The notes: generated by a model from the sequence alone, not told the origin. A stretch of 64,000 nt of DNA from Hahellaceae bacterium (GCA_024234505.1 JACKOD010000001.1:783166-847165), one strand, 5' to 3'. Counted from the first letter of the stretch, positions 5,096 through 49,249 are shown. Made by a program: numbers and translations.

Positions 5096-5158
5096 TCAAG
5101 AGCTTTTAACCAGATTAGCTATAGCTCACCTTGATTTGCAATAGCATGGAAGTCATGA

Positions 5159-22742: not shown

Positions 22743-22889
22743 TTTACCCAGCTTGAAAGTAAGCCTATATTTATGAACACCATTTCGAAGTTCTAGTTTT
22801 AGTTCTCGTCCTGTTTCCATAAGTCATAGAAAACACTTCCAGCCGAATCGCCTTTTTTGGCACAAATTTATTGAATACAGGAAATGACT

Positions 22890-23096
22890 ATGTCAACTAC
22901 TACTGGCACCGTAAAATGGTTTAACGAAGCTAAAGGTTTTGGTTTCATTCAGCAAGAGTCTGGCCCAGACGTTTTTGCACACTTCAGTGCAATCTCTGGC
23001 ACAGGTTTCAAAACTCTGGTTGAAGGCCAGCGTGTTTCTTTCACTGTAACTAAGGGCCAGAAAGGTCCTCAGGCAGAGAACATCGTAGCTCTCTAA
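22890..23096 (+). CDS. cspA: Cold-shock protein, CspA family
   Basis: [20 protein letters not shown]... with RNP1/RNP2 motifs. 68 aa. Confidence 0.9.
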
Positions 23097-23148
23097 TTAT
23101 TAGAGGCAGTCGGCGCTGAAATTTATTTCAGCCCGAAGCGATAATAAA

Positions 23149-23181
23149 AAGGCAAGGTTTTATAACCTTGCCTTTTTTTAT
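23149..23181 (+). terminator. Rho-independent terminator downstream of cspA
   Basis: Stem AAGGCAAGGTT/AACCTTGCCTT followed by a T7 run. A smaller hairpin GCTGAAAT/ATTTCAGC lies just upstream, at about 23115-23135. Confidence 0.7.
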
Positions 23182-28185: not shown

Positions 28186-28850
28186 GGGTTTGATGAGTGC
28201 GACTGAACAAAATCTTTGGAAAGTGAAGCACTTGGCAATGACTTTTGATGTAAATTAATACCAAACTTTTCCCGCCGTAGCCAAAGCAAATACAGGGTAA
28301 AACAGGTGTAGCCTGCCGGACTGACCCAACCGCTTTTGAGTGACCACCAGTAATGCAGGCAGCCAAGCAGAGCCACAAGGTAAATGTAGTTGTGGAGTTT
28401 TTTCCAATTCCGGCCCATTTTCCGCATCAACTTAGGGATGGATGTTACTGCCAGCGCCAAAAGCAGCAGCAGTGCGCTGAATCCGACCAGAATATAGGTA
28501 CGCTTAACCAGTTCCTCGCCGATTAGCGACCATTCAAAAGTTAAATCCAAAGCCAGCCAAACGTAAAAGTGCAAGGCAGCCCACGCAAAACACCATAAAC
28601 CCAACGGTCGTCTCAGCTTCAATAACTGGCCGAATTTAAGCATTTTGGCTAATGGTGAGATGCACAGTGTCAGCAGAAGCAGCCTCAACGTTCCTATACC
28701 GAGAAAGTGAATCAGCTCCTTTACCGGGTCGCCACCGAAAACGCCCTTAGGTATGGCCCAGAACAGCCACAGCAAAGGAAGCACGGCACAAATGTGTACC
28801 AGTATTCGCAGGGTGAGGGCGGTTTTAGCGCCGGGTCTAAAAGTCATCAT
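28182..28850 (-). CDS. msrQ: Protein-methionine-sulfoxide reductase heme-binding subunit MsrQ (YedZ)
   Basis: 222 aa, 6 TM helices, conserved His residues. Coupled to msrP. Confidence 0.8.
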   Translation of the reverse strand: MMTFRPGAKTALTLRILVHICAVLPLLWLFWAIPKGVFGGDPVKELIHFLGIGTLRLLLLTLCISPLAKMLKFGQLLKLRRPLGLWCFAWAALHFYVWLALDLTFEWSLIGEELVKRTYILVGFSALLLLLALAVTSIPKLMRKMGRNWKKLHNYIYLVALLGCLHYWWSLKSGWVSPAGYTCFTLYLLWLRREKFGINLHQKSLPSASLSKDFVQSHSSNP

Positions 28851-28856
28851 GAATAC

Positions 28857-29885
28857 TCAATAAAATTTTCTTAAATCCATGCCCGCATAAAGACTGGCGA
28901 CCGCCTCTTCGTAACCGTTGAACATTAATGTTTTCTGGCGGGTACTGGAGAAAGGCCCGCCGGGGCCAATAAAGCGCTCAGAAGCTTGTGACCAGCGTGG
29001 GTGATCCACGTTCGGATTTACGTTAGCGTAAAAACCATATTCATTGGGTGCCAGCAAATTCCAGGTGGTAGGCGGTTGGGTTTCCATCAAACGGATTTTG
29101 ACAATGGACTTAATGCCTTTAAATCCATACTTCCAGGGCACCACTAAACGCACAGGGGCACCATTCTGCGGTGGCAGTGTTTTCCCGTAGAGCCCTACCG
29201 ACAAGAGGGTGAGCGGATGCATGGCTTCGTCGATGCGTAATCCTTCGACGTACGGATATTGAATGCCACCCCCGATACGGCGTGATTTTTGTCCCGGCAT
29301 TTGTTCGGGGTCGTACAAGGTTTCAAACGCCACATATTTGGCGCGGCTGGTGGGCTTGAATTTTTTCAGGATGCTCCCGAGCTCGACCCCCAGCCAGGGA
29401 ATCACCATCGACCAGGCTTCAACGCAACGCATGCGATAGATGCGTTCTTCAAGGGCCGAAGTATGGATCATTTCCCAGAGGTCAATCGTTCCAGGCTGTT
29501 CGACTTCACCCTCTACCGTGAGAGTCCAGGGTTGCGTTTTCAGGTGCTGACTATTCGCTGCGGGATCCGTTTTGTCCGTGCCGAACTCATAGTAATTGTT
29601 GTGACTAGTGACTTTATTTTCGGGGGTCAGTATCAGTCCATGGGTCTGATTGTCCTTGGTGTAGGGCAATGGAGAGCGTGGCGCCTCAGACGCGGGTTTG
29701 TCTCCCCCCAGCAAATCGTCGAAAACTCCGCCTCGGGCGTTCAGCGCGACACCGGAAGCAGCAACGATGCCGAGCGCCTTTAACACCGAGCGACGACTCA
29801 GGTAAATGGACTCGGGCGTAACCTCGTTTTCAGAAATGGCACCTATCTGTGGGCGTTTGATCAACATGTGAATTCCACCTTGCAT
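28857..29885 (-). CDS. msrP: Protein-methionine-sulfoxide reductase catalytic subunit MsrP (YedY), molybdopterin oxidoreductase
   Basis: Tat motif SRRSVLKAL. Sulfite-oxidase-fold similarity. Real start may be the internal MLIKRP ATG at about 29870. Confidence 0.8.
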
Positions 29886-29955
29886 TGCATGGGTAAGCTG
29901 TTATTGAACAGTCTAGGCCGTAAGGCGAGGTGAAATCATCACAACTTCATAACAT

Positions 29956-30546
29956 TTATATAAGAATGCTGCGGACCTCCATTAACGCAAAGCCCAATAA
30001 ATTCAATCCTGGCCAGTGTTCGGGTTCGCAAGCTTCCTTTGCGTAACAGGCAAGACCTATTCCCCAAACGGAGTCCACCGGACTCGCTTCGACCAGCACG
30101 CGCTGACCTGTCGACAGAATAAAAGTTTTAAGTGACTGATTTTGTGAAAATTTGGCGAGATTACCTGTCACGACAATATCGAAGCGATGTTGCTGCCACC
30201 GAGCTTCGTCGAAGCCCGCAATTTCACGTCCCAGCTTTTTCGCTTCACCTGGATGACCCGCTCGCAATATCTTTTCGGCGATGTCGTGATCACCAAACAG
30301 CCTTGCCTTTGCCGCCATCATGTAGTGTTCGGCGGTCGGGTAATAGATATCTTCTATAGTAAAACCCGCATCGAACCATTGGCTAAAGCAGCTTTTGTCG
30401 ATTGCTCCTGGTTTGTGCGGTTGATGTCCCCAGAAAAACAGGTACTTGGCCGAAAAGCCCTTTTGTATGGCAGTCACTAAGGACTGTGTGCTTTTAAAGG
30501 TAGCGCTTGTCATTTTCCCTTCCTTCTGTAAATCCTTCTTTAACAA
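29956..30546 (-). CDS. NADAR-family protein (YbiA-like, DUF1768; predicted N-glycosidase acting on ADP-ribose-derived substrates)
   Basis: 196 aa. YbiA-like conserved residues (FFWGHQ, TAEHYMMAAKARLFGD, WQQHRFDIVVTGNLAKF). Start overlaps the upstream stop by 7 nt. Confidence 0.65.
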   Translation of the reverse strand: MLKKDLQKEGKMTSATFKSTQSLVTAIQKGFSAKYLFFWGHQPHKPGAIDKSCFSQWFDAGFTIEDIYYPTAEHYMMAAKARLFGDHDIAEKILRAGHPGEAKKLGREIAGFDEARWQQHRFDIVVTGNLAKFSQNQSLKTFILSTGQRVLVEASPVDSVWGIGLACYAKEACEPEHWPGLNLLGFALMEVRSILI

Positions 30547-31490
30547 ACCAATTGTCCCTGTACTGGCCGCAAGGCGATATTCACTACGGCGCCGGCGTTA
30601 AACTCTATGCAATCATCCAGCATGCCATCGCTGAAAATCACGCCGTTTTCCGGCATGGCAGAGGCGATGGTCAGTGGTGCGCTATCCGACACCTGACCAA
30701 ACAGCATTCGCGTGCCGGTATTGCGGCTGGGGAAAGGTTCGCGGACCGAATACACAAGGCGGGCTTCGTCCCAACCGAAATTGGATAACGGTATTTGACG
30801 GTCATCTGTCCAGCCATTGGCCTGTGCGATGCCGAAACTTCCGGTAATGACGCTTTTCAGCCAGCCGGTGGAACCCAAGCCGGTGGACACAATAATGCCG
30901 CTGGAGGATTGGAATTCGCCCTCGCCAGACTGTAGTAAATGGTATCTGGCCGACGCATGCCCGCGCTGGCCGATAAAAAAGTCGTTTACCGCAACCATTT
31001 TTTGGCCATCATTGAGTTCTGCCTGAGCCATGGTAATGGATTTGCAATTGAATTTGCCCCTGAGTACGTCCGTTAAAACCTTCGCTGATTCCTTCACTTG
31101 AAAGGGCAGTAGAACCCCGTCAAAACGTGATGGATCGGGATTAATGGCAACCGTAGGCTGGCCGGACAGATATTTCAGGGTGTTGGCCACCAGTCCATCC
31201 TGACCCAGCACCACCACGATATCGTCCTGAGCGAATATAAAGTTGGCGAGAAAATCCCGATCCAGCGTTTGTACCCGTCCCAGCGCACTTAACGCCGTTT
31301 CGATCGCATTTAATGCGTTTCGATAACTCTGGTGTTCTTGTCGATAGTCGGAAAAGTCTTCCCCACGACTTTGAATATAAAACTCGGCTTGCTCCTCGGT
31401 ATTGTGTTTAAACACTAGTTCCTGCAATCGCGTGCGTCGGGTTACCAATATGATTTTCCGTTGCGAAGCCATAAGGTTTACCTCGTCCAT
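30540..31490 (-). CDS. ATP-NAD kinase-fold protein (NAD kinase / DAG-kinase-like catalytic domain), divergent
   Basis: 316 aa. GGDGT-like motif GQDGLV. NAD-kinase C-terminal motif resembling DGxxxxTPTGSTAYS (SGIIVSTGLGSTGWLKS). 5-nt gap to the upstream SPFH gene. Confidence 0.55.
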   Translation of the reverse strand: MDEVNLMASQRKIILVTRRTRLQELVFKHNTEEQAEFYIQSRGEDFSDYRQEHQSYRNALNAIETALSALGRVQTLDRDFLANFIFAQDDIVVVLGQDGLVANTLKYLSGQPTVAINPDPSRFDGVLLPFQVKESAKVLTDVLRGKFNCKSITMAQAELNDGQKMVAVNDFFIGQRGHASARYHLLQSGEGEFQSSSGIIVSTGLGSTGWLKSVITGSFGIAQANGWTDDRQIPLSNFGWDEARLVYSVREPFPSRNTGTRMLFGQVSDSAPLTIASAMPENGVIFSDGMLDDCIEFNAGAVVNIALRPVQGQLVC

Positions 31491-31495
31491 GTGGT

Positions 31496-32506
31496 TTACT
31501 TTGAATTACCCATCAGTTCGCGCATCAGGTCAGGCGAAATATTCAACTGGCCGATCTTGTCCGCGCCTTTGGCAATCTGACTAAAGGAGAGGGCGATCAG
31601 TTGTTCCGGTTTCATGCCGCTATTGGTAATGGCTTCCAGTACGCGGCTGTCGGCGGCGGCCATCGCGCGCATCGTGGAATCAATCGCGTAGGCTTTGGCG
31701 TCCGCTTCCTTACGCGCATTTTGGGTAGACAAATCCACCAGCATCTGTCGCTGTTCTTCCAGTTGAATGGTGCTTTCCAATTCCGCCCGCTGCATTTCCT
31801 GGCGTTTGAGCTGCACGGCCATTTTCGCTGCCATCTCGGCTTCTTTTACTTGCTGCTTTTTCTCTTCGACCAGTTTTTCGGTCTCCAGCTCGTTTTCCTT
31901 GATGCCGCGTTCCTGTTCCAGCGCAGCATTGCGGCGGTCGTAGATGGCTTCATCCGCTTCCTTCAAAAGTTGCTCGCGAATCGTGGACTCTAAGGCGCGT
32001 GCGGTTTCGGCATTGGGTTTGATTGCCAATATTGAAACATCCAGCACTTCGATACCCAGGCGATCTAACACCGGTGCGTTGGACAAGGCGTCGTTAAGCT
32101 GGTTGACCAGCCCTTCTGATGCCGACAGCGCTTCCTTCAGCGTGATGGTTTGAACAAAGTTGCGTGTTTGTACCTGCACCAGATTCAGCAGTCGACCTGG
32201 GAGCTTTTTAGGGGCTTCGGACGCGTAATCTGCCCCATTTTTTGCCAGCGTGAAATTCATGACGGCAGCGAGTTGTTTCGGATCTTTGATGCGATAAACC
32301 AGTTGGCCCTGAATCGACAAGGTCTGAAAATCGGCGCTGACTTCATTAAAGATAAAAGGCAGATCGCGGCTTTCCATGGGAATAGCCACCAGCGAGGTGG
32401 TTGGTGCAAAGTAAAAGCAACTCAGTCCAATGCCTTCCTTCACCAAACGGCCTTTGCGGTATTTCATTAGATAGGTGCTTGGTTCGGTTTTGATGTAGCG
32501 AAACAT
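31496..32506 (-). CDS. SPFH/band-7 (flotillin-like) protein with C-terminal coiled coil
   Basis: 336 aa. SPFH-domain N-terminus. Long Glu/Lys/Ala/Gln-rich heptad region. Confidence 0.7.
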   Translation of the reverse strand: MFRYIKTEPSTYLMKYRKGRLVKEGIGLSCFYFAPTTSLVAIPMESRDLPFIFNEVSADFQTLSIQGQLVYRIKDPKQLAAVMNFTLAKNGADYASEAPKKLPGRLLNLVQVQTRNFVQTITLKEALSASEGLVNQLNDALSNAPVLDRLGIEVLDVSILAIKPNAETARALESTIREQLLKEADEAIYDRRNAALEQERGIKENELETEKLVEEKKQQVKEAEMAAKMAVQLKRQEMQRAELESTIQLEEQRQMLVDLSTQNARKEADAKAYAIDSTMRAMAAADSRVLEAITNSGMKPEQLIALSFSQIAKGADKIGQLNISPDLMRELMGNSK

Positions 32507-32783
32507 AGTGAACTCCTTCTCTTGTTAGACGCTTTTTGACATGAATGTCTATTAATATTGGCAGTATGCCACTTATATTTAATTAATAGTGGCAAAGAGA
32601 CACTATGTTGTCAATGCCGGAAAGGTATCGTTTTTTTGTTAAGCTGTAAAATAAACGTACAATGCCCGTCCTAGCAGGTTTGACATCAACAGGGATACGT
32701 TTAGAAGGTAGGCGGCCCGTCCACGCCTACAGAATGGCAGCCTCTGAGTGAGCTAATGCGATAAAAAAGGTAACAGATTCATC

Positions 32784-34295
32784 ATGATGAATAAGAAAAC
32801 AAATAATGCGAAGTATCTTCCTTGGATTCTAACGGCGTCAGTAAGTCTGTTTACTGGTGCAACACAAGCCAGATTGATGGTGGGCGAAGGCGTGGCTGAC
32901 AGCCGTGAACAAGCGGGTAAACTGGCGTTGTCTGATCTGGCCAGCCAGATATTTGTGCAGGTAGAAAGCCGTGCCGATGTGCAGCAGTCCGAAAGTCAGG
33001 GCAGCTCGTACAGTCAGAATATTGCCACCCAGACCGATTTGCCGCTCATGGGCGCCAAGGTGGAATGCTATGAACAGTTTGGCAAACCTACCTGTCAGGC
33101 TTCGCTGGAAACCAGCGCCGCCACGGCCTTGTATCTGGGCAAAATGGACGATGAGGTGGCGAGCCTCAAGCAGGAATTGGCGGTGATGAAAAAGCAGCCC
33201 AAAGGCGATCACTATGCGCGCATCAATCGTATGTTGCAGGCCATCGACAGTTACGAAAAATACCGTACGGTACTGAACTTTTTTACCGGGGGCCAGACCA
33301 AGGTTGCCTCTTTGCCCGCCAGTCGCGCCGACTTGCTACAACAGATGGAGCGCTATCAACAGCAGGTTAAAAGCCTGCGTACGGCGGCCGACGTTATCGG
33401 GCAGGGTATCGGGCAGCAAAATCTTCTGATCAAGGCACCGACTCCGCAAGGCGTCAATGAAGTTACCCCTCTGGGGCGCGCACTGTACGATGAACTTCAG
33501 CGCAGTTTGCTTAATCGTCAGGCGAAAGATGAAAGTGGTGCTGATTATGTGTTGTCCGGGCAGTATGAAGAAGTGAAACAGGGCGTACGCCTGAGTATGG
33601 CCTTAAAAGACCAAACCGGCAAAACGCTGAGCTACAAAACCCTGTTATTAGACCCCGTTGCTTACGCCCAATTCGACCCCAAACCCCAGCACCTGGATTT
33701 CGACGCACTGGTCAAGCATGGCTACGTGCTGGACAACCAGTTCCGGGTCGAACTCACCACCGACAAAGGCCAGCGCCAACTGCATTACAATGCCTGCGAC
33801 CCAGTGCAACTGCTCGTGCGGGCCAACCGCCCCACCTGGTATTACATTGTGGGCCACACCCAGAACGACAAAGAACGCTTTTCCTACTTACTGGAGCTGA
33901 ACGGCTACGGTCAGGAAGGCAGCCCGGAGCGCTTTACCGGTAAAATCGGTGCGGGCAATCTCAATACCTACCAGGCCTTGTTTGATGGCTTTTACGTGAT
34001 TGCGCCCTTCGGCAACGAAACCTTCCAGTTGTTTGGCAGTGACCAGCCGATTGAAAAACGTTTGCCGAAAACCCGCGCGCAAGTCAGGGACGGTTATACC
34101 TATTACGTTTTGGTGGACAACGATGGCCAGCCCAGTGCGCCGGAAAAAGCGGTTAGCACCACGCGCGGATTAATAGCGGCGCATCAGGTGAAAAAGGCGC
34201 AGGGCGCGAGCCAGCCTGCACGCTATTCGGAATCGGTGTTGTCTTATCAGACTTACTCGACGTCACAGTACCAAAAACGCGGTTGTGATATATAA
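32784..34295 (+). CDS. Secreted protein with LPP20-like N-terminal region and DUF4384-like C-terminal region (partner of caspase-family protein)
   Basis: 503 aa. Signal peptide (...LFTGATQA). C-terminal region resembles the DUF4384 module that accompanies bacterial caspase proteins. Assignment by similarity from memory. Confidence 0.4.
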   Translation: MMNKKTNNAKYLPWILTASVSLFTGATQARLMVGEGVADSREQAGKLALSDLASQIFVQVESRADVQQSESQGSSYSQNIATQTDLPLMGAKVECYEQFGKPTCQASLETSAATALYLGKMDDEVASLKQELAVMKKQPKGDHYARINRMLQAIDSYEKYRTVLNFFTGGQTKVASLPASRADLLQQMERYQQQVKSLRTAADVIGQGIGQQNLLIKAPTPQGVNEVTPLGRALYDELQRSLLNRQAKDESGADYVLSGQYEEVKQGVRLSMALKDQTGKTLSYKTLLLDPVAYAQFDPKPQHLDFDALVKHGYVLDNQFRVELTTDKGQRQLHYNACDPVQLLVRANRPTWYYIVGHTQNDKERFSYLLELNGYGQEGSPERFTGKIGAGNLNTYQALFDGFYVIAPFGNETFQLFGSDQPIEKRLPKTRAQVRDGYTYYVLVDNDGQPSAPEKAVSTTRGLIAAHQVKKAQGASQPARYSESVLSYQTYSTSQYQKRGCDI

Positions 34296-34346
34296 CCTCA
34301 TTCGACGCGCCTGAAGAAATGCGAAATTGCAGGAGGAAAGAATACA

Positions 34347-36230
34347 ATGCCACAGGTTGTCCGTTATGGTCTGGTGCTAATTTGCCTGTTGGGTGGATTT
34401 ACTCAAGTATGGGCTGAAACCCGTACCGCGCTGGTGATTGGAAACAGTGCCTACCGGGATGCGCCGTTGAAAAATCCGGCGAATGACGCAACCGATGTCG
34501 CTAAATTACTGCGTAGTCTGGAGTTTGACGTCGTTCTGAAAACCAATGCCACGCAAGAGGCCATGGAAGACGCCATTCGCGACTTCGGCAAAGCATTGGA
34601 GAAAAAAGGCGGAGTAGGGCTGTTTTTCTACGCGGGGCACGGCGTGCAGTCGCAGGGTAAAAACTACCTGATTCCGGTGGATGCCCAGCTCGAACGGGAA
34701 AAAGATCTGCGCTACCGCGCCGTTAATCTGGGTCAGCTGCTGGATGAAATGCGCTTTGCCAAAAACGGCCTGAACATTGCCATTCTCGATGCCTGCCGTA
34801 ATAACCCGCTGACACGCAGCTTCCGCTCCAGTGAACGCGGGTTGGCCCCCACGACCGATGCACCAAAGGGCTTGTTTTTGGCGTATTCTACCTCGCCCAA
34901 CGAAGTGGCCGCCGACGGCGAAGGCCGTAACAGTCCCTTTACCGAGCAGCTCAAGCTGGCACTAACCAAACCGGGGCTACCTCTGGAACTCACTTTTAAG
35001 GAAGTGGTGAAAGGGGTTAAAAAAGTCACACAGGAAAAGCAGGTGCCCTGGTTCAACTCCTCGGTAAGTGGCGATTTTTATTTTAAACCCGCTACACCGG
35101 CGCAGGCTCCAGTGGTCACGCCAACCATTGGGCCCTCAGCAGTACCCGGCAAGGCGGTGGACGCACTGGCCTGGACTTATGTTGAAAACAGCCAGGATGT
35201 CAGAGACTTTGCGGCTTTTCAGAAGCAGTTCCCTAACTCGCAGTATGCTTTTCTGGCTAAGATTCGCGAGCAGCAATTGCAGCGTACCTCCGCGCCAGCG
35301 GCCCCGGTGGCAGAAAAATATGCCCTAACCGTGCAAGCTACCCCGGCTAATGCAAAAATCCGCATTCTCAATATCGGCCCCGCTTATCGTGACGGTATTC
35401 AACTGACACCGGGAGATTATCACCTTGAAGTCAGCGCGAGAGGTTACGAAATGCAAAGGGAATGGGTCTCGCTGGGTAATATCGACCTTACGCACCGCAT
35501 AGTATTGAACAAAACGTCTACGTCTAGCCGGGCAACCCAACTAGGGCTGGAATTTGTGACGATTCCGGCAGGCAGTTTTATGATGGGCTCCGATGACGGT
35601 GATAACGACGAAAAGCCTGTACGAAAGGTTCAGGTGCCGTCGTTTAAGCTAATGAAATATGAAGTCACCCAAGGCCAGTGGCAGGCGGTGATGGGGTCTA
35701 ATCCGTCGTATTTCAGCAGTTGTGGCCAGAACTGCCCGGTGGAAAATGTTAGTTGGAATAACGTTCAGCAGTTTATCCATAAGCTCAACCAGCAAACCGG
35801 CCTGACCTTCCGTTTGCCGAGTGAGGCCGAATGGGAGTATGCAGCACGGGCGGGTACGACCACTGCCTTTTCCTTTGGCGATCAGATTACGACCGAGCAG
35901 GCCAATTTTAAAGGAAACTATACCTATAATGGCAGTCAAAAAGGTGTTTACCTAGGAAAAACCGTTCGTGTAGACAGCTTCCAGCCCAATAACTGGGGGC
36001 TTTATAATATGCACGGTAATGTCTCGGAGTTGACAGAAGATTGCTGGAATTATTTTAATAAAGACTATATCAATAGTCGTGCCAGAAGTGACGGTGATTG
36101 CTCGCTTCGTGTGCTGCGTGGCGGCTCCTGGGCCAACGAACCGCGCTACCTTCGTTCGGCCAGCCGTAACAGTTTCTTCATCGGCTTTCGCGACTATTTC
36201 GCCGGCTTTCGTCTCGTGCAGGGCCTCTAG
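34347..36230 (+). CDS. Exported caspase-family (peptidase C14) protein fused to PEGA domain and FGE-sulfatase (SUMF1-like) domain
   Basis: 627 aa. Signal peptide. Caspase catalytic dyad context YAGHG ... DACRNNP. PEGA-like segment (YALTVQATPANAKIRILNIGPAYRDGIQLTPGDYHLEV). FGE-sulfatase motifs (MGSDDGDNDEKP, EAEWEYAARAG, WGLYNMHGNVSELTEDCW, RVLRGGSW). Confidence 0.75.
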   Translation: MPQVVRYGLVLICLLGGFTQVWAETRTALVIGNSAYRDAPLKNPANDATDVAKLLRSLEFDVVLKTNATQEAMEDAIRDFGKALEKKGGVGLFFYAGHGVQSQGKNYLIPVDAQLEREKDLRYRAVNLGQLLDEMRFAKNGLNIAILDACRNNPLTRSFRSSERGLAPTTDAPKGLFLAYSTSPNEVAADGEGRNSPFTEQLKLALTKPGLPLELTFKEVVKGVKKVTQEKQVPWFNSSVSGDFYFKPATPAQAPVVTPTIGPSAVPGKAVDALAWTYVENSQDVRDFAAFQKQFPNSQYAFLAKIREQQLQRTSAPAAPVAEKYALTVQATPANAKIRILNIGPAYRDGIQLTPGDYHLEVSARGYEMQREWVSLGNIDLTHRIVLNKTSTSSRATQLGLEFVTIPAGSFMMGSDDGDNDEKPVRKVQVPSFKLMKYEVTQGQWQAVMGSNPSYFSSCGQNCPVENVSWNNVQQFIHKLNQQTGLTFRLPSEAEWEYAARAGTTTAFSFGDQITTEQANFKGNYTYNGSQKGVYLGKTVRVDSFQPNNWGLYNMHGNVSELTEDCWNYFNKDYINSRARSDGDCSLRVLRGGSWANEPRYLRSASRNSFFIGFRDYFAGFRLVQGL

Positions 36231-36294
36231 CGTCTTTTGGCTAGCGGTTACCCTTTGCGGAGCGTTAGCGACCCTGGAAATAGCTGTGCGAATT

Positions 36295-36345
36295 CCGCTC
36301 AGGCGGCTTCGCCCGCGCGGCGAGGACACCCCGCCTGCTGGGTGT
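36295..36345. repeat. About 50-bp repeat, copy A (GCGCGGCGAGGACACCCCGCCTGCTGGGTGT core); direct repeat of 38041-38092
   Basis: About 85% identity to copy B in the same orientation. Confidence 0.6.
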
Positions 36346-36464: not shown

Positions 36465-36492
36465 AGTACTTAGTACTTAGTACTTAGTACTA
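36465..36492. repeat. Tandem heptanucleotide repeat (AGTACTT)x3 plus one imperfect unit
   Basis: Read directly. Lies between the convergent 3' ends of the caspase gene and the 36529 gene. Confidence 0.8.
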
Positions 36493-36528
36493 AGTGCTAA
36501 TAAGTTATCCCCCACAATGTACCTCGCT

Positions 36529-37851
36529 CTACCTGTTGCCCTGTATCATCGATAATATCCATTGACCCGGCCGCACAATCAGCACATAAAAAATGCCCCA
36601 AAGGGTGGTAAGTACAACATAAGCAAAGCACCAACCACCTGCCACTGGCAAGAACACCAGCAGAAATAGAGCAAAATGCAGCGGCCTGAGCAGTAAATAC
36701 AGTGGCCACTGTTGCCAATGCTCGGGTCGATGCAGGCGCCATATGGCATTCCAGGCACGCCAGGTAGTGAGGGATGCCAGAAAACCCAAAAAGCCGGAAA
36801 TGATCAGATAAGTCTGCAGATAGGTCGGGATAAACGGCACGATGCGCTGGTCAAGTTCCTGGCCTCGCGCTTCATTGGGTGCGGCCAACACAATCGACTT
36901 GACTACAAGATGTTTGGCCGTGTGGGCGGCTACATCGCCAATGCTTAAGCCGGCGTCGCTTGCGGCAGTCAGATTCGGTACAGGACGTGTCTGAATCAAA
37001 CTCTGGCTCCCTTGGCCTTGGGCCAACTGATAAACAAAACGCTCATCACTTAAACCGGCAAATTGTTGTAGAAAGCCTGCCGTGTGATTTTCGGCGAGAC
37101 TGCCGGACAGCATGACTTCAGTGTGCTTTTGCGCTTCTGCCAGTACCTTGGTGGGGTTGGGAGCATCAAGCATGATCAGTTGAATGTCGTGTGTTTCGGC
37201 CTGGGCTTTTAGCAAAATGCGACTGGCATCGGGCAATTGGTTGCCTGCCACGACCAGCGTTTTCCGCGACATGGTTGACATGGCGGCAAGTGTTTCCTGT
37301 AGCGAATCAGATGCTGAGCCGATTTCACGAAAACTGATCTGGCCGGGCTTCCAGGGGCGCTGCAGGTGCCATAACCCTGATTGCAATTGCGTGATGTCAG
37401 CCACGGGCATGTCGATATTGGAAAAATTGAGTTCCCAATTTGGATTTACGCCGGTCGGGCGCCTCAGCGTAAATACTGCGTCATTTTTGGTTTTTAGCAA
37501 GATTGGCAGACTGTCCGGCAGGTTCTCGAAGTGTTTCAAGGAGCCGGGTAAATCCCGCGCATCAAGAAGCAGCGCGTGGGGAGCCGGTTGCAGGCGGGCA
37601 ACATCTTCAATCGTTTTAATTACATGTAGCTGACCATCAGCTCCTTCCAGAATCCATTCACCGCCTTCACGCGGGCGCAGGGAGGCAATGTGTTTGTCGT
37701 GTAGACCTTCCGGTAGTTTCAGTTTGTGAAGGGGGACGTCGACATCGACGTGCCTGGCTACTTTGCCCACTTTGGTCAACTCAGACAGAAAACCGCCGTG
37801 GGCGAAGGATGTTAATAGGCTGATGAGCCAAATTATCCAAACTTTTTTCAT
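36529..37851 (-). CDS. Hypothetical exported/membrane protein (N-terminal signal, C-terminal 3-4 TM helices)
   Basis: 440 aa, no recognisable family. Flanked by direct repeats and microsatellites. Confidence 0.5.
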   Translation of the reverse strand: MKKVWIIWLISLLTSFAHGGFLSELTKVGKVARHVDVDVPLHKLKLPEGLHDKHIASLRPREGGEWILEGADGQLHVIKTIEDVARLQPAPHALLLDARDLPGSLKHFENLPDSLPILLKTKNDAVFTLRRPTGVNPNWELNFSNIDMPVADITQLQSGLWHLQRPWKPGQISFREIGSASDSLQETLAAMSTMSRKTLVVAGNQLPDASRILLKAQAETHDIQLIMLDAPNPTKVLAEAQKHTEVMLSGSLAENHTAGFLQQFAGLSDERFVYQLAQGQGSQSLIQTRPVPNLTAASDAGLSIGDVAAHTAKHLVVKSIVLAAPNEARGQELDQRIVPFIPTYLQTYLIISGFLGFLASLTTWRAWNAIWRLHRPEHWQQWPLYLLLRPLHFALFLLVFLPVAGGWCFAYVVLTTLWGIFYVLIVRPGQWILSMIQGNR

Positions 37852-37872: not shown

Positions 37873-37914
37873 CGCTAAACGCTAAACGCTAAACGCTAAA
37901 CGCTAAACGCTAAA
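37873..37914. repeat. Perfect tandem heptanucleotide repeat (CGCTAAA)x6, 22 bp upstream of the 36529-37851 gene start
   Basis: Read directly. Unit length is not a multiple of 3. Located in the promoter/5' UTR region. Confidence 0.9.
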
Positions 37915-38040: not shown

Positions 38041-38092
38041 CCCCTCAGATGGCTTCGGCCTGCGCGGCGAGGACGCCCCGCCTACTGTGTGT
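38041..38092. repeat. About 50-bp repeat, copy B (GCGCGGCGAGGACGCCCCGCCTACTGTGTGTG core)
   Basis: Direct repeat of 36295-36345. Confidence 0.6.
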
Positions 38093-38137: not shown

Positions 38138-38587
38138 TTAATGGCGGTGTAGCCCCGTTAAATGCGTGGGTGCTTCGGATTCCACCTCGGCAATGTTCTG
38201 ACAAGATAGCCCCTCAATAATTCCGCATTGGTTCACTTCGCGATGGTCTCCGCAATTCTGACGCAGGGTGCGTAATTGCGTTGAGAGTGACTGCAAGGCA
38301 TGGATGCGGGCCTCCACATGCTGAATATGTTCGTCGATCAGGTCATTTATTTCGTGGCAATCATCCTTAGGATGATCGCGCATGGCCAGTAACAGGCGAA
38401 TTTCTTCCAGACTCATATCGAGCGTGCGACAGTTGCGAATGAACAGCAGGCGCTCCAGATCTGCCTCGCGGTAAACTCGGTAATTGCCGTCGCTGCGGGA
38501 AGGTGTGGGTACGAGGCCTTCTTTTTCCCAGTAGCGAATGGTTTCGACCGGGCAGTTAATTCGCTTGGCGAGTTCTCCGATTTTCAT
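38138..38587 (-). CDS. MerR-family heavy-metal-responsive transcriptional regulator (ZntR/CadR/PbrR-like)
   Basis: 150 aa from the MKIGELAKR start. HTH (GLVPTPSRSDGNYRVY). C-terminal Cys residues. The longer upstream track ORF is rejected. Confidence 0.8.
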   Translation of the reverse strand: MKIGELAKRINCPVETIRYWEKEGLVPTPSRSDGNYRVYREADLERLLFIRNCRTLDMSLEEIRLLLAMRDHPKDDCHEINDLIDEHIQHVEARIHALQSLSTQLRTLRQNCGDHREVNQCGIIEGLSCQNIAEVESEAPTHLTGLHRH

Positions 38588-38669
38588 TTTTTGTTTCCTC
38601 TGGCCTATTGACCCTATAGTAGCTTCAGGGTGTCTACTGGACAACAGATCAATAGCATATGGAGTATCA
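38588..38669. promoter_or_regulatory. Divergent MerR-type promoter/operator: TTGACC, 19-bp spacer containing dyad ACCCTATAG..CAGGGT, then -10
   Basis: The 19-bp -35/-10 spacing and the imperfect palindrome overlapping the spacer are typical of MerR-family operators. Sits between the divergent regulator and ATPase starts. Confidence 0.5.
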
Positions 38670-40955
38670 ATGATGTCAGGCGGATGTGGTGAAAGCACAA
38701 GGTCTAAAGATTGCGGTGAAAGCACAGAGGCTAAAGCAAGTACTCGTTGTTGTGGTGCAGGTGAGGGAAATTCGCACAGTGAAAGCGCTTTGCCGCCCTG
38801 TTGTGCGGCCTCGCCTGATGAAAAGAAGGAGGCCGATAGTATCATCGACTTACCTGGTTTTGTCCGTTCGCAGTTTCGCATCGCGCAAATGGATTGCCCC
38901 ACCGAAGAGCGTCTGATTCGGGATAAGCTTTCGTCGCTTGCAAGTGTCGGGGCGCTGGAGTTCAATCTGCTGCAACGGGTGCTGACGGTCTTTCATGTGC
39001 CGGATGGGGTCGACGATATTGTGGCCGCCATACAATCACTCGATTTCACGCCGGAGCCTCTGACCGACAACGCACGGCCTCTTACACCTGTGCCGCACCA
39101 GCCGCTTTGGCCGTTGGTTTTGGCTGGCTTGAGTGCTATCGGTGCCGAAATCGCGCACTTTTTTGCATTGACGAACGACTGGGTTGTTGCTGCGCTGGCG
39201 TTAGTTGCGATTGCCAGTTGCGGTCTGGGTACCTATAAAAAGGGCTGGATTGCCTTAAAAAACCGCAACCTCAACATCAACGCCCTGATGAGTATTGCCG
39301 TGACCGGCGCGCTGCTGATCGGTCAATGGCCCGAGGCGGCAATGGTGATGGTGTTGTTTGTCATAGCGGAGTTGATTGAGGCCAAATCCATTGACCGCGC
39401 CCGGCATGCCATTCGCAAATTACTGGATTTATCCCCTCAGCAGGCCACAGTTAAAAGTGCCGATGGTCATTGGCATACGCAGGATATTCGACATATCGCT
39501 ATGGGGTCACAAGTGCGCGTTCGGCCGGGCGAGCGTATTGCGCTGGATGGGGTGATTCAGGATGGACAATCTTCCGTGAATCAAGCCCCGATCACCGGCG
39601 AAAGTTTGCCCGTGGACAAAACAGTGGGTGATGCGGTGTATGCGGGCAGCCTGAATGAGGCCGGCTCTTTTATTTACACCACCACGGCAGCGGCGGATGG
39701 AACCCTGTTGGCGCGCATTATTCATGCCGTAGAAAGCGCCCAAGGGGCGAGGGCGCCGACGCAGCGTTTTGTGGATCAATTCGCCAAAGTTTACACGCCG
39801 GTGGTGTTTGCGCTGGCATTAGCGGTCGCTGTCGTGCCACCGTTATTTTCAAGTGGTATCTGGCTGGAATGGATTTATCGAGCACTGGTTTTGTTGGTGG
39901 TCGCCTGCCCCTGCGCCTTGGTGATTTCAACGCCGGTAACCATTGTGAGTGGGCTGGCCGCTGCGGCGCGACAGGGGATTCTGGTCAAGGGTGGAGCATT
40001 TCTGGAAGCCGGTCGGCATTTACGTTATCTGGCGTTAGATAAAACAGGCACCTTGACGGAGGGTAGACCGAAGCAGACTGACAGCATCATATTGTCCGAT
40101 GAACCGAATGACTTTGAGGTTGTCGCGGCGAGTCTGGCTAACCGTTCGGATCATCCGGTTTCTCATGCCATTGCCAGCGCGTTTAGCGGCCAGTTCGTCA
40201 AAGTAGAGCACTTCAGAGCCTTGAACGGTCGTGGGGTGGCCGGGTCGGTTGCCGGTCATAGTTATCATTTGGGTAATCATCGTCTGATCGAAGAGTTAGG
40301 CCTTTGCTCGCCGGAACTGGAAGTTCAGTTGAAAGGGCTGGAACAGCAGGGCAAAAGTGTGGTGCTCCTGACCAACGAACACAAGGTGCTGGCCTTGTTC
40401 GCCGTGGCCGATACGTTGCGGGCAACCAGTCGGGAAGCCATTCAGCAACTGCACGAACTGGGCGTTAAAACGCTTATGCTCAGTGGTGACAATCAATACA
40501 CTGCCCAGGCCATTGCAGACGGTGCAGGTATCGATGAAGTTAAGAGCGAGTTGTTGCCGGAGGACAAGCTGGCGGTTATTGCTGCACTCAGCGGTGAACA
40601 TGACAAGGTAGGCATGGTGGGAGATGGCATCAACGATGCCCCGGCACTGGCCAGAGCCGATATTGGTTTCGCGATGGGCATCAGTGGCACTGACACCGCA
40701 ATCGAAACCGCCGATGTGACTTTGATGGATGACGATTTGCGTAAAATTCCGCGCTTTATTGCGTTATCGAAGCAAACGGCCACCGTACTTCAACAAAACA
40801 TTGCACTGGCGATTGGCATTAAAGTGGTGTTTCTAGGGTTGGCTTTGGTCGGTCAGGCGACTCTGTGGATGGCGGTGTTTGCCGATATGGGCGCGAGTCT
40901 GATCGTGGTTGCAAATGGGTTGCGGATGTTGGAAGCACCGACTGAGCGCGGGTGA
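38670..40955 (+). CDS. Heavy-metal-translocating P1B-type ATPase (Zn/Cd/Pb type)
   Basis: N-terminal Cys-rich region (CG, CC, CC) plus HMA-like domain with DCPTEE motif. TM CPC motif (VACPCALV). DKTGTLT and GDGINDAP motifs. Start set at MMSGG with RBS GGAG. Confidence 0.85.
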   Translation: MMSGGCGESTRSKDCGESTEAKASTRCCGAGEGNSHSESALPPCCAASPDEKKEADSIIDLPGFVRSQFRIAQMDCPTEERLIRDKLSSLASVGALEFNLLQRVLTVFHVPDGVDDIVAAIQSLDFTPEPLTDNARPLTPVPHQPLWPLVLAGLSAIGAEIAHFFALTNDWVVAALALVAIASCGLGTYKKGWIALKNRNLNINALMSIAVTGALLIGQWPEAAMVMVLFVIAELIEAKSIDRARHAIRKLLDLSPQQATVKSADGHWHTQDIRHIAMGSQVRVRPGERIALDGVIQDGQSSVNQAPITGESLPVDKTVGDAVYAGSLNEAGSFIYTTTAAADGTLLARIIHAVESAQGARAPTQRFVDQFAKVYTPVVFALALAVAVVPPLFSSGIWLEWIYRALVLLVVACPCALVISTPVTIVSGLAAAARQGILVKGGAFLEAGRHLRYLALDKTGTLTEGRPKQTDSIILSDEPNDFEVVAASLANRSDHPVSHAIASAFSGQFVKVEHFRALNGRGVAGSVAGHSYHLGNHRLIEELGLCSPELEVQLKGLEQQGKSVVLLTNEHKVLALFAVADTLRATSREAIQQLHELGVKTLMLSGDNQYTAQAIADGAGIDEVKSELLPEDKLAVIAALSGEHDKVGMVGDGINDAPALARADIGFAMGISGTDTAIETADVTLMDDDLRKIPRFIALSKQTATVLQQNIALAIGIKVVFLGLALVGQATLWMAVFADMGASLIVVANGLRMLEAPTERG

Positions 40956-45704: not shown

Positions 45705-46049
45705 TCAATTAATGGTAGCGCGAGCTTCCTAAGTTTTCCGCTCGAAGCGATTGCATTTTATACCGGTGTTCCGCAATGGCGCTTCGGTGTAGGGGGACGT
45801 TATGTGATGAATCCAGAAGCGGAAGTCAAAGTTGACTATGATAAAGTCACTGTAAAATACGATGATACGATCGGATTTGTGACAGAAGTAGGTTATCAGC
45901 CAGCAGACAATTTTTGGATCAACATTCGTTATGTCGCCGAGCAATATGAACCGACAGATATCGAATTTAATGGCCTCAAGTATACTGTAAACTCTTCGGC
46001 AGAGATCAGCGGTAACCATGTCGGTATTAATGCAGTGATGATGTTCTAA
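45705..46049 (+). pseudogene. Possible C-terminal fragment of an outer-membrane beta-barrel protein (no upstream ATG; only a GTG at 45804)
   Basis: Frame open from stop at 45702. Alternating amphipathic strands and terminal aromatic (...GINAVMMF). Weak. Confidence 0.25.
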
Positions 46050-46279
46050 TCCTTAGAGCCGGTGTCGGCACAGGTTGTTGATTAACGCAACCTGAGTCGT
46101 CTCGAAGTACTTGGTTCCCTTCAAATCAACGGAGGAATTTATCCCCACCCGTTGATTTATTACACAAGGGATGCGCTGTTAATGGTGGAACATTGCAATT
46201 AATAGCGAAACATTGCGATGCTGTGTCGGCGTAACTCACATCAGATATTCCAAGGTGTTACGCCTCAATGCAGACCTGC

Positions 46280-49216: not shown

Positions 49217-49249
49217 GTGCCTGTCTGTATTGTATTTACAATTGGGGGA

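What the first reader, a model, noticed from the sequence alone, without database searches (positions are those of the whole stretch)
32784..36230. Exported caspase-PEGA-FGE-sulfatase fusion with a secreted DUF4384/LPP20-like partner
Both proteins carry signal peptides. The second fuses a peptidase-C14 caspase domain (His...Cys dyad contexts YAGHG and DACRNNP) to a PEGA domain and a formylglycine-generating-enzyme (SUMF1) fold. The partner appears to carry the DUF4384 module that typically travels with bacterial caspases. This is a periplasmic caspase-like module of unknown function.
Basis: partly seen in the sequence, partly recalled or inferred. Interest (0 to 1): 0.55.

Follow-up and report, generated by a model that had tools for sequence, protein, structure and literature searches.

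The report
Exported caspase-like protease with lectin-fold tail and partner
Two adjacent genes of a marine Hahellaceae bacterium encode an exported caspase-like protease carrying a non-enzymatic, swappable lectin-like binding domain, and an exported partner protein whose relatives usually sit beside such proteases; it is a plausible but untested sensor-protease pair acting outside the cytoplasm.

Summary
ORF1 (32784-34295, 503 aa) and ORF2 (34347-36230, 627 aa) are real, probably co-transcribed genes with N-terminal export signals.

ORF2 has four parts:
- Peptidase_C14 (E 1e-41; His98/Cys150 and Asp47/Asp148 invariant in 117 relatives).
- A three-helix motif.
- A PEGA-type beta-sandwich, just sub-threshold here, but all 28 homologous domains hit PEGA.
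- An FGE fold (E 2e-50) that lacks both copper-binding cysteines (Asn597, Leu602), so it is not a formylglycine-generating enzyme.

In a ~99% identical strain the PEGA+FGE cassette is replaced by an Lcl_C/DUF1566 domain. DGR literature groups both domain types as C-type-lectin folds. The tail therefore looks like an exchangeable binding module.

ORF1 gives no DUF4384 hit itself, but 71 of 97 aligned relatives do. Its model (pLDDT 87) matches LpoB and the H. pylori LPP20-family protein HP1454.

This partner family lies next to an exported caspase or CHAT protease at 10 of 14 informative independent loci (TPR, WD40, FGE or no identified extra domain). Conversely, none of 82 metagenomic loci with relatives of ORF2's caspase and/or FGE domains carries it.

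The caspase-FGE architecture has been known since 2012. I found the partner pairing in none of the papers searched. Function is inferred: a sensor-protease acting on, or docked to, its partner.

The parts
32636..32663 (+). Candidate sigma-70-type promoter (TTGTTA-16-TACAAT) in the 277-nt intergenic region upstream of ORF1
   Evidence: Consensus scan only. The number of sites found (5) is not above shuffles (3.7 +/- 2.0), so this is weak evidence.
32784..34295 (+). ORF1: exported partner protein, 503 aa (LPP20/LpoB-like x2, helical hairpin, DUF4384-type beta-sandwich)
32784..32870 (+). ORF1 predicted Sec signal peptide (aa 1-29, cleavage after TQA)
   Evidence: Read from the sequence (basic, hydrophobic, small-x-small layout). 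Modelled as helix 12-26. Hydropathy heuristic only; no lipobox.
32862..33113 (+). ORF1 N-terminal LPP20-like alpha/beta domain (aa 27-110)
33111..33287 (+). ORF1 long helical hairpin (aa 110-168)
   Evidence: DSSP on the model: helices 110-137 and 140-168, pLDDT above 90.
33366..33683 (+). ORF1 second alpha/beta domain (aa ~195-300; weak LptE/FlgO/LpoB-like)
33735..34133 (+). ORF1 DUF4384-type beta-sandwich (aa ~318-450)
34152..34256 (+). ORF1 conserved C-terminal tail: T-R461-G-L, a Lys/Arg-rich linker, then the (A/S)-E483-(A/S)-V-L-x-F-T-T strand. Candidate cleavage or docking site
   Evidence: Arg461 is present in 97 of 97 members and Glu483 in 96 of 97. pLDDT falls to 57-73 at residues 461-480. 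The role as a protease site is inference.
34331..34336 (+). Shine-Dalgarno AGGAGG for ORF2
   Evidence: Read directly from the sequence.
34347..36230 (+). ORF2: exported caspase-like protease, three-helix motif, PEGA-like domain, FGE-fold domain (627 aa)
   Evidence: It is 100% identical to an NCBI Hahellaceae MAG protein. The model has pLDDT 89.6 and pTM 0.47, meaning confident domains joined by flexible linkers.
34347..34415 (+). ORF2 predicted Sec signal peptide (aa 1-23, cleavage after VWA)
   Evidence: Read from the sequence. Hydropathy 2.84 over 10 residues. Modelled as helix 2-16. No lipobox.
34422..35081 (+). Peptidase_C14 caspase domain (aa 26-245). His98 is codon 34638-34640, Cys150 is 34794-34796, and the S1-pocket candidates Asp47 and Asp148 are 34485-34487 and 34788-34790
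   Evidence: Pfam E 1.2e-41. Alignment to MALT1. Foldseek match to the MALT1 caspase domain 3v4o, TM 0.80. All four residues are invariant in 117 homologues. Codons.
35148..35288 (+). Three-helix motif (aa 268-314), recurrent in caspase-FGE relatives
   Evidence: Helices 268-279, 285-294 and 301-314. A custom HMM finds it in many relatives. No Pfam name was found.
35310..35522 (+). PEGA-type beta-sandwich (aa ~322-392)
   Evidence: 19.1 bits against a cut-off of 20.8 when scanned alone. 28 of 28 homologous domains hit PEGA and CarboxypepD_reg. All-beta in the model.
35550..36218 (+). FGE-fold (C-type-lectin-like) domain lacking the catalytic cysteines. Asn597 (36135-36137) and Leu602 (36150-36152) occupy the places of human FGE Cys336 and Cys341
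   Evidence: Pfam E 1.8e-50. Alignment to human FGE structures. Best structural matches are PvdO (TM 0.78), TvpA (0.71) and FGE (0.67). The Cys336 position is never Cys in the relatives aligned.
35280..36274 (+). Exchangeable 3' cassette (PEGA+FGE and 45 nt past the stop), replaced in a ~99% identical strain by a linker plus an Lcl_C/DUF1566 domain
   Evidence: blastn of L002 against the window gives 98.8% identity over 28753-35279, then no similarity until 36275. Mismatches rise from 0-7 per 100 nt to 12 and then 50 per 100 nt. P0004 is Peptidase_C14 plus Lcl_C, E 1.8e-30.

Best explanation
This is a two-gene module that works outside the cytoplasm.

ORF2. It is a Sec-exported clan-CD cysteine protease with an intact His98-Cys150 dyad. 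The acidic S1 residues Asp47 and Asp148 are conserved, so it probably cleaves after Arg or Lys, as paracaspases and metacaspases do. Flexible linkers join the protease to a three-helix motif, a PEGA-type beta-sandwich and a C-terminal FGE-fold domain. That last domain has lost the copper-binding cysteines. It therefore acts as a ligand-binding (targeting or sensing) module, not as a formylglycine-generating enzyme.

ORF1. It is the protease's dedicated exported partner. It has two LPP20/LpoB-like domains, a helical hairpin, a DUF4384 beta-sandwich and a conserved basic C-terminal tail.

Most likely mechanism. The partner is the protease's cognate substrate, or its docking or regulatory subunit. 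Ligand binding by the lectin-fold tail localises or licenses the protease, which then cuts the partner in the invariant TR|G / Lys-rich tail.

Shown: gene structure, domain identities, catalytic-residue status, the cassette swap, and the genomic linkage of the partner family to exported clan-CD proteases. Inferred: export, P1 specificity, ligand binding, and any cleavage of ORF1.
For: Protease.
- Domains and dyad.
- In the MALT1 alignment Asp47 and Asp148 fall at the positions I recall as MALT1's S1 aspartates Asp365 and Asp462 (numbers from general knowledge). Both are invariant in 117 relatives.

FGE domain.
- The cysteines are replaced by Asn597 and Leu602.
- The first position is never Cys in the relatives aligned.
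- The nearest structures are PvdO and the DGR-diversified binding protein TvpA. PvdO is described as lacking FGE's catalytic residues (my recollection, not checked here).

Exchangeable tail.
- A sister strain, 98.8% identical in the flanks, carries Lcl_C in place of PEGA+FGE. The break falls next to the interdomain linker.
- FGE-sulfatase and DUF1566 are the CLec1 and CLec2 ligand-binding folds of DGR targets (PMC5758913).

Partner linkage.
- An exported caspase or CHAT gene lies next to the partner homologue in L004-L007, L009, L010, L012, L015, L017 and in the window. That is 10 of 14 informative independent loci.
- The proteases carry TPR, WD40 or FGE extra domains, or none identified.
- All those with a complete N-terminus carry export signals.

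Precedents.
- Upstream effector genes with proteases fused to FGE sensors are described for Pepco (PMC12642450).
- DUF4384 is the C-terminal domain of some Csx30 proteins, which are substrates of the CHAT protease Csx29 (bioRxiv 10.1101/2022.08.17.504292).

Partner tail.
- The invariant Arg461 sits in a low-confidence, Lys-rich loop.
Against: - None of 82 metagenomic loci with relatives of ORF2's caspase and/or FGE domains has a partner-family gene within 5 kb. Most caspase-FGE proteins therefore work without it.
- Four partner-family loci (L001, L011, L013, L014) have no adjacent protease, yet the family keeps Arg461 everywhere. The Arg may be structural.
- Only 14 informative loci were examined.
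- Export rests on a manual reading of the N-termini, and ORF1's hydrophobic core is modest (1.79 by the heuristic).
- Loss of the FGE cysteines does not exclude some other chemistry. PvdO is named a dehydrogenase by NCBIfam.
- There is no experimental evidence of any kind.
Confidence: 0.5

Rival explanations
1. Stand-alone exported protease. ORF2 acts alone, as most caspase-FGE proteins apparently do. For example it could be a periplasmic or surface protease directed by its lectin-like tail to a glycan or protein target, for envelope protein turnover, nutrient acquisition or cell-cell interaction. ORF1 would be an unrelated envelope protein that merely shares the operon.
For: 0 of 82 loci with relatives of ORF2's caspase and/or FGE domains carry the partner family. 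Contexts of close relatives differ widely. Four partner-family loci lack any adjacent protease.
Against: An exported clan-CD protease lies next to the partner family at 10 of 14 informative loci. These span Gamma- and Betaproteobacteria, with three different protease architectures and both gene orders. Coincidence is hard to credit. The 51-nt gap without a terminator suggests co-transcription.
Confidence: 0.2
2. The partner is an inhibitor or chaperone. ORF1 would hold the protease inactive in the producer's own periplasm, or trap it, as staphostatins or bacterial alpha-2-macroglobulins do, rather than being cut to produce an output.
Against: Resemblance to MG domains is generic beta-sandwich similarity at modest Z. 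No thioester or bait-region features were looked for or seen. Gene order is reversed in the Gallionellaceae loci.
Confidence: 0.15
3. Bifunctional modifying enzyme. The FGE-family domain is catalytic (an FGE-, EgtB- or PvdO-like oxidase), and the protein both cleaves and oxidatively modifies a substrate. This was speculated when the architecture was first noted.
For: NCBI names the identical protein 'SUMF1/EgtB/PvdO family nonheme iron enzyme'. The best NCBIfam hit is PvdO, at 119 bits. The speculation appears in PMC3501461.
Against: Both copper-binding cysteines are absent, and the first is never Cys in the relatives aligned. All NCBIfam scores fall far below their cut-offs: PvdO 119 against 500, EgtB 55 against 360. 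No DinB-type iron-binding domain was detected. A sister strain replaces the domain with a non-enzymatic Lcl_C lectin-fold domain while keeping the protease and partner.
Confidence: 0.08
4. Target of a diversity-generating retroelement. The FGE-fold C-terminus would be a variable region that is hypermutated, as in TvpA.
For: TvpA is the second-best structural and sequence match. FGE-fold and DUF1566 domains are the commonest DGR targets (PMC5758913, PMC7159879).
Against: No template-repeat-like copy of the last 500 nt exists anywhere in the 64-kb window; the best chance matches are 14 nt or shorter. The difference from the sister strain is a whole-domain replacement, not adenine-specific substitution. 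ORFs were not systematically screened for a reverse transcriptase.
Confidence: 0.03

Closest known systems
Metacaspase/orthocaspase-FGE-sulfatase domain architecture (Asplund-Samuelsson et al. 2012, PMC3501461; also PMC4933709)
   Same: The same N-to-C order, Peptidase_C14 then FGE-sulfatase. It was already counted as the fifth most common accessory domain of prokaryotic metacaspases (33 of 671 sequences). 7862 of the 8000 scored candidates matched ORF2 at E<=1e-3, and nearly all of the 120 listed carry Peptidase_C14 plus FGE-sulfatase.
   Different: Those surveys treated the FGE domain as a sulfatase-activating enzyme and reported no function, partner or localisation. Here the catalytic cysteines are shown to be missing. 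A PEGA-type spacer, a dedicated partner family and a strain-level tail swap are described.
MALT1 paracaspase (PDB 3v4o, 3uo8)
   Same: It is the closest solved structure to the protease domain (phmmer E 1e-18; Foldseek TM 0.80, 28% identity). The YAGHG and LDxCR catalytic contexts are shared. Asp47 and Asp148 align at what I recall as MALT1's S1 aspartates.
   Different: MALT1 is cytosolic, with death and Ig domains, and is activated by CBM-complex oligomerisation. ORF2 is exported and carries bacterial PEGA and FGE-fold domains. Arg specificity is inferred here, not shown.
Non-catalytic FGE-fold proteins: PvdO (5hha), Treponema TvpA (2y3c), PorK/GldK (9mzu)
   Same: These are the best sequence and structure matches to aa 400-627. 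As I recall, all are envelope or periplasmic proteins lacking the FGE cysteine pair. TvpA is a DGR-diversified binding protein and PorK is a structural ring lipoprotein.
   Different: None is fused to a protease. NCBIfam scores for PvdO and GldK fall far below their equivalog cut-offs, so this domain is orthologous to neither.
Protease-effector defence modules with sensor-fused proteases (Pepco, EACC1, MBL, alpha/beta-hydrolase; Evans et al. 2025, PMC12642450) and the conflict systems of Kaur et al. 2020 (PMC7159879)
   Same: The grammar is the same: a small or medium partner gene next to a protease that is fused to a variable sensor. FGE-fold sensors are explicitly listed for the Pepco-associated proteases. 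Pepco is activated by cleavage in its C-terminal tail, which resembles the conserved tail proposed here.
   Different: As far as I read them, the characterised modules act in the cytoplasm and are triggered by phage proteins. Here both proteins, and every adjacent protease with a complete N-terminus in related loci, carry export signals. Neither DUF4384 nor LPP20 is mentioned in that paper's text, so the partner is probably not among its ten surveyed effector families. PADLOC gives no hit for ORF1 and only a generic caspase hit for ORF2. No defence-island context was established.
Type III-E CRISPR Craspase: Csx29 (TPR-CHAT) cleaving Csx30
   Same: A clan-CD protease with a cognate substrate encoded nearby. 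One group of Csx30 C-terminal domains is DUF4384 (bioRxiv 10.1101/2022.08.17.504292). TPR-CHAT proteases sit next to the partner family in L004-L006.
   Different: There is no CRISPR or Cas7-11 here. ORF1 was not tested for a Csx30 N-terminal domain. The system is exported rather than RNA-guided and cytoplasmic.
H. pylori LPP20-family protein HP1454 (4kzs) and the LpoB C-terminal domain (4q6l)
   Different: ORF1 has no lipobox. It has two such domains plus a helical hairpin and a DUF4384 sandwich. Sequence similarity is sub-threshold.

Membership tests
Peptidase family C14 (clan CD caspase / paracaspase / orthocaspase) | Profile match above the curated threshold | tested here: met
   PF00656 143 bits against a cut-off of 21.4, covering 2-233 of 233 model positions.
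Peptidase family C14 (clan CD caspase / paracaspase / orthocaspase) | Catalytic His-Cys dyad at the canonical positions | tested here: met
   His98 and Cys150 align with the MALT1 YAGHG and LDMCRK contexts. Both are invariant in 117 relatives.
Peptidase family C14 (clan CD caspase / paracaspase / orthocaspase) | Proteolytic activity and P1 specificity | not testable with these tools
   Only inferred, from the conserved Asp47 and Asp148.
Formylglycine-generating enzyme (SUMF1-type) | FGE fold | tested here: met
   PF03781 172 bits. Foldseek TM 0.63-0.68 to human and bacterial FGE structures.
Formylglycine-generating enzyme (SUMF1-type) | Pair of copper-binding catalytic cysteines (human Cys336 and Cys341) | tested here: not met
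   The aligned residues are Asn597 and Leu602. There is no Cys after residue ~585. The Cys336 position is never Cys in the relatives aligned.
EgtB / OvoA sulfoxide synthases, PvdO, GldK/PorK (other named FGE-fold families) | Equivalog-level profile score; for EgtB/OvoA also a DinB-type iron-binding domain | tested here: not met
   PvdO 119 against 500, GldK 101 against 350, EgtB 55 against 360, SenA 55 against 420, OvoA 27 against 400. No DinB-type domain was found by Pfam.
PEGA domain (PF08308) | Profile match above the gathering threshold | tested here: inconclusive
   14 bits in the full protein and 19.1 bits for the excised domain, against 20.8. 28 of 28 homologous domains hit PEGA, best E 6e-10. 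The model is an all-beta sandwich.
DUF4384 (PF14326) | Profile match in ORF1 | tested here: inconclusive
   ORF1 itself gives no hit even at E<=10. 71 of 97 full-length homologues hit, best E 1.3e-8. Homologue P0264 passes the cut-off (27.7 bits against 27) in the segment aligned to ORF1. Membership therefore rests on homology, not on a direct match.
LPP20 lipoprotein family (PF02169) | Profile match above threshold, and a lipoprotein signal | tested here: not met
DGR variable protein | Template repeat matching the 3' end of the gene, and a nearby reverse transcriptase | tested here: not met
   No repeat of 35801-36300 longer than 14 nt anywhere in the window. The rest of the 852-kb contig could not be searched, and ORFs were not screened for a reverse transcriptase.
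Linked protease-effector anti-phage modules (PMC12642450) | Effector gene adjacent to a protease fused to a sensor | tested here: met
   ORF1 lies 51 nt upstream of ORF2. Adjacency recurs at 10 of 14 informative loci, with variable extra domains on the protease.
Linked protease-effector anti-phage modules (PMC12642450) | Match to a known defence-system model, or a defence-island context | tested here: not met
   PADLOC gives nothing for ORF1 and only a generic caspase model for ORF2 (52 bits). The neighbours are MsrPQ, SPFH, NADAR, and a MerR regulator with a P-type ATPase.
Linked protease-effector anti-phage modules (PMC12642450) | Site-specific cleavage that activates a toxic effector; protection against phage | not testable with these tools
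   Needs experiments.

The most novel reading that the evidence does not exclude
ORF1 and ORF2 represent an extracytoplasmic counterpart of the cytoplasmic protease-effector immune modules. An exported clan-CD protease would use an exchangeable lectin-fold, TPR or WD40 sensor to detect a foreign or damage-associated molecule in the periplasm or at the cell surface. It would then cleave the conserved basic tail of an LPP20/DUF4384 protein, switching on an envelope response such as permeabilisation, signalling or abortive infection. This would be a protease-effector family not among those currently described, and one that surveys the envelope rather than the cytoplasm.
Probability: 0.2. Interest if true: 0.75.

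Novelty: new variant of a known kind. Interest (0 to 1): 0.45.

Why it matters
Caspase-FGE fusions are among the commonest multidomain bacterial caspase homologues, yet no function is known for them. Databases label them 'nonheme iron enzymes' or 'formylglycine-generating enzyme'.

This analysis shows that the closest relatives lack the FGE catalytic cysteine pair, and that one strain swaps the domain for another lectin fold. The domain is therefore better read as a binding or sensing module, and that annotation is misleading.

The link between an undescribed exported LPP20/DUF4384 family and exported caspase or CHAT proteases gives a concrete protease-partner pair to test. If the partner is a cleaved effector, proteolysis-gated signalling of the kind now known from cytoplasmic anti-phage systems would extend into the periplasm.

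Tried and rejected
- DGR target: blastn of the last 500 nt of ORF2 against the whole window found only 11-14 nt exact matches plus a few imperfect matches of 15-27 nt at 81-93% identity. Rejected for this window.
- True FGE, EgtB, PvdO or GldK orthology: rejected on catalytic residues and on NCBIfam scores.
- Partner as a general companion of caspase-FGE proteins: rejected, 0 of 82 metagenomic loci. The contexts of P0006 and P0008 differ.
- Known defence system: PADLOC gave nothing specific.
- The search for related loci with the 97- and 12-sequence partner alignments failed for lack of a conserved stretch. A 4-sequence alignment worked.
- Exact look-up of the identical NCBI protein P0003 found no contig on record.
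- Intrinsic terminators: none on the + strand between or directly after the two genes.
- Literature: seven papers in the library mention DUF4384, and those I read describe no function for it.

Full report
**What is there**

The window carries two same-strand ORFs at exactly the reported coordinates: ORF1 at 32784-34295 (503 aa) and ORF2 at 34347-36230 (627 aa). They are 51 nt apart. An AGGAGG ribosome-binding site precedes ORF2, and there is no terminator-like site between or directly after them on the + strand. They are probably one transcription unit. ORF2 is 100% identical to a protein of a Hahellaceae metagenome-assembled genome, which NCBI names 'SUMF1/EgtB/PvdO family nonheme iron enzyme'. 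Base composition around the pair is unremarkable.

**ORF2, the protease**

Pfam finds two strong domains:
- Peptidase_C14 at aa 26-245 (E 1.2e-41).
- FGE-sulfatase at aa 402-624 (E 1.8e-50).

The closest solved protease is the MALT1 paracaspase. FYAGHG (His98) and ILDACRN (Cys150) align on MALT1's YYAGHG and LLDMCRK. The model superposes on the MALT1 caspase domain with TM 0.80. Asp47 and Asp148 fall where I recall MALT1's S1 aspartates (Asp365, Asp462) to be. His98, Cys150, Asp47 and Asp148 are invariant in all 117 caspase-bearing relatives examined. The protease is therefore predicted to be active. Arg/Lys specificity follows from established knowledge of paracaspases and metacaspases; it is inferred, not shown.

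The AlphaFold model (pLDDT 89.6, pTM only 0.47) shows confident domains joined by disordered linkers at 257-267 and 316-320. The order is:
- signal helix;
- caspase domain;
- a three-helix motif (aa 268-314);
- a beta-sandwich (aa 325-386);
- the FGE fold.

It scores 14 bits in the whole protein and 19.1 bits alone, against a cut-off of 20.8. All 28 homologous domains from relatives hit PEGA and CarboxypepD_reg, with a best E of 6e-10.

**The FGE fold is not an FGE**

In the alignment to human FGE structures, the motif GGSYM-C336-HRSY-C341 corresponds to GGSWA-N597-EPRY-L602. Among the relatives aligned, the first position is never Cys. The second is Cys in 34 and Leu in 42.

NCBIfam scores for PvdO, GldK, EgtB, SenA and OvoA all lie far below their cut-offs. 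The best structural neighbours are PvdO, the DGR-diversified binding protein TvpA, and then FGE itself. Recent literature treats such FGE-fold (C-type-lectin-like) domains as sensor or binding modules of conflict systems (PMC7159879, PMC13581612, PMC12642450).

**A strain-level cassette swap**

Two Logan contigs (L002, L003) carry ORF1 at 99% identity in the same neighbourhood. L002 is 98.8% identical to the window from 28753 to 35279. Similarity then stops and resumes only at 36275. Mismatches rise from 0-7 per 100 nt to 12 and then about 50 per 100 nt at codon ~311, which is the end of the three-helix motif.

The sister gene (P0004, 498 aa) keeps the signal peptide, the caspase domain and the helical motif. 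It ends in an Lcl_C/DUF1566 domain (E 1.8e-30) instead of PEGA+FGE. FGE-sulfatase and DUF1566 are the two classes of C-type-lectin-fold variable domains of DGR targets (PMC5758913). One ligand-binding fold has thus been exchanged for another while the protease and partner stayed fixed. This is the strongest argument that the tail is a specificity module. I found no template-repeat-like copy of the gene's 3' end in the window, so a DGR is not involved locally.

**ORF1, the partner**

On its own ORF1 gives only sub-threshold LPP20 (20-22 bits against 25.9) and LptE hits, and no DUF4384 hit. The word-indexed search found only two relatives. An exhaustive HMMER search found 293 cluster representatives, mostly 455-490 aa long and aligned end to end.

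Evidence for the domain assignments:
- Of 97 aligned members, 71 hit DUF4384 (best E 1.3e-8), 25 hit LPP20 and 5 hit FlgO.
- One homologue's DUF4384 hit passes the Pfam cut-off in the segment aligned to ORF1.
- The model (pLDDT 87, pTM 0.83) shows an alpha/beta domain, a long helical hairpin, a second alpha/beta domain and a beta-sandwich.

The family's most conserved feature is its C-terminal tail. It consists of T-R461-(G/A)-L (Arg in 97 of 97 members), a Lys/Arg-rich linker, and an (A/S)-E-(A/S)-V-L-x-F-T-T strand. Model confidence is low at residues 461-480.

**Genomic linkage**

Fourteen genomic loci of the partner family were fetched, plus L001. L008 and L016 are uninformative because the contigs are short or truncated. 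That leaves 14 informative independent loci, counting the window.

A clan-CD protease gene lies next to the partner at 10 of the 14:

| Locus or loci | Adjacent protease | Position relative to partner |
|---|---|---|
| L004, L005 (Psychromonas), L006 | Lipoprotein TPR-CHAT | Immediately downstream |
| L007, L009, L012 (Gallionellaceae) | WD40-caspase | Upstream |
| L010 | Caspase | 2.7 kb upstream |
| L015 | Caspase | Downstream |
| L017 (Psychrosphaera) | Caspase-FGE gene, split | Divergent |
| Window | Caspase-PEGA-FGE | Downstream |

Four loci (L001, L011, L013, L014) have no adjacent protease. Every adjacent protease with a complete N-terminus has a Sec or lipoprotein signal.

The converse does not hold. 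None of 82 metagenomic loci holding relatives of ORF2's caspase and/or FGE domains has a partner-family gene within 5 kb. Two close relatives of ORF2 also sit in unrelated contexts. The partner family is thus tied to exported clan-CD proteases in general, but most caspase-FGE proteins do without it.

**Export**

Both N-termini have the classical layout of basic residues, a hydrophobic core and a small-x-small cleavage motif, and neither has a lipobox. A hydropathy heuristic finds such N-termini in 109 of 120 ORF2 relatives and in 128 of 149 partner representatives. No dedicated signal-peptide predictor was available.

**Interpretation**

The best-supported reading is an extracytoplasmic sensor-protease with a dedicated partner. 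Its grammar matches the cytoplasmic protease-effector modules:
- An effector gene lies next to a protease that is fused to a variable sensor.
- Those sensors include FGE folds.
- Pepco is activated by cleavage in its C-terminal tail (PMC12642450).

It also recalls Csx29-Csx30, where some Csx30 C-terminal domains are DUF4384.

Whether ORF1 is a substrate, an anchor or an inhibitor cannot be decided here. I favour substrate or docking partner. The reasons are the invariant Arg in a basic, flexible tail and the predicted basic specificity of the protease. The main rivals are a protease that acts alone, an inhibitor or chaperone partner, a catalytic FGE-family domain, and a DGR target. They are weighed in the structured fields.

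**Novelty**

The caspase-FGE architecture has been catalogued since 2012 (PMC3501461) and is very common in sequence databases. ORF2 as such is a new member of a known kind.

The papers I read do not describe the following:
- the loss of the FGE cysteines across the closest relatives;
- the lectin-fold cassette swap between strains;
- the exported LPP20/DUF4384 partner family and its linkage to exported caspase and CHAT proteases.

Only seven papers in the library mention DUF4384 at all. PADLOC has no model for ORF1. All functional statements remain inference from sequence, models and gene context.

Noticed in passing
window 36311-36345 and 38058-38092; also 36465-36500 and 37873-37907: A 35-nt direct repeat (89% identical; its 22-nt core has 0 matches expected by chance) flanks the convergent ORF 36529-37851(-). 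That ORF is 440 aa, with a signal-like N-terminus and hydrophobic C-terminal segments, and has no significant family hit (only a sub-threshold DUF7346 match, E 0.031). The sister-strain contig L002 ends inside this repeat. Nearby are a palindromic AGTACTT repeat block and a CGCTAAA x5 tandem repeat.
   Followed up: partly
window 29956-32506 (- strand): Divergent from ORF1 lies a three-gene run: an SPFH/Band 7 protein (31496-32506), an NAD-kinase-like protein (30540-31490; NCBIfam only, weak) and a NADAR protein (29956-30546). The NADAR protein hits the PADLOC candidate defence model PDC-M42C at E 4.6e-42. The trio is conserved in the sister strain (L002).
   Followed up: partly
P0229, P0264 (relatives of ORF1): One partner-family protein (P0229, 827 aa) is fused to a C-terminal DUF900 alpha/beta-hydrolase. 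Another (P0264, 637 aa) has a Ser/Thr kinase N-terminal to the partner's C-terminal half, including DUF4384. The module therefore also serves as an appended extracytoplasmic domain.
   Followed up: partly
L007 2018-2548 and 4939-5544: In a Gallionellaceae MAG the partner homologue lies between two small related ORFs and downstream of a WD40-caspase. The downstream ORF (4939-5544) has a clear lipobox and a Pfam LPP20 hit (E 1e-11). The upstream ORF (2018-2548) shares sequence with it but was not scanned against Pfam. This suggests a larger envelope gene set in that lineage.
   Followed up: no
L001 1794-2534 (-) next to 2866-4299 (+): The partner homologue P0002 has no adjacent protease. It is divergently adjacent to a gene with a Sigma70_r2 hit. 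This recalls the Csx30-RpoE link but was not examined.
   Followed up: no
L017 3768-5655 (-): In Psychrosphaera algicola the caspase-FGE gene divergent from the partner homologue is split into at least two ORFs (caspase 4948-5655, FGE 3768-4493). This may be a frameshift or a pseudogene. The partner homologue in L015 is likewise broken into three ORFs.
   Followed up: no
L018 3789-10827: A metagenomic contig carries three consecutive caspase genes: caspase-TPR, caspase-FGE-FGE (956 aa) and a third caspase protein (644 aa). A very large TPR protein follows. This is a caspase paralogue array with different tails.
   Followed up: no
window 38138-40955: A MerR-family regulator (- strand; the domain starts only at aa 127 of the listed ORF, so the real start is probably further in) is divergent from an ORF of 805 aa (38538-40955). 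I read that ORF as a heavy-metal P-type ATPase by eye only; it was not scanned. The two listed ORFs overlap by about 430 nt, so the mechanical start codons are probably too far upstream.
   Followed up: no
window 22726-23178 (+): The only Rfam match at gathering score in the window is a cspA thermoregulator (83.5 bits against 78). No tRNA genes were found in the 64 kb.
   Followed up: no
window 46001-54000: There is a sharp compositional step. GC is 0.56-0.62 at 46-52 kb (large minus-strand ORFs of 978 and 626 aa) and 0.395 at 52-54 kb, against about 0.45-0.51 elsewhere.
   Followed up: no
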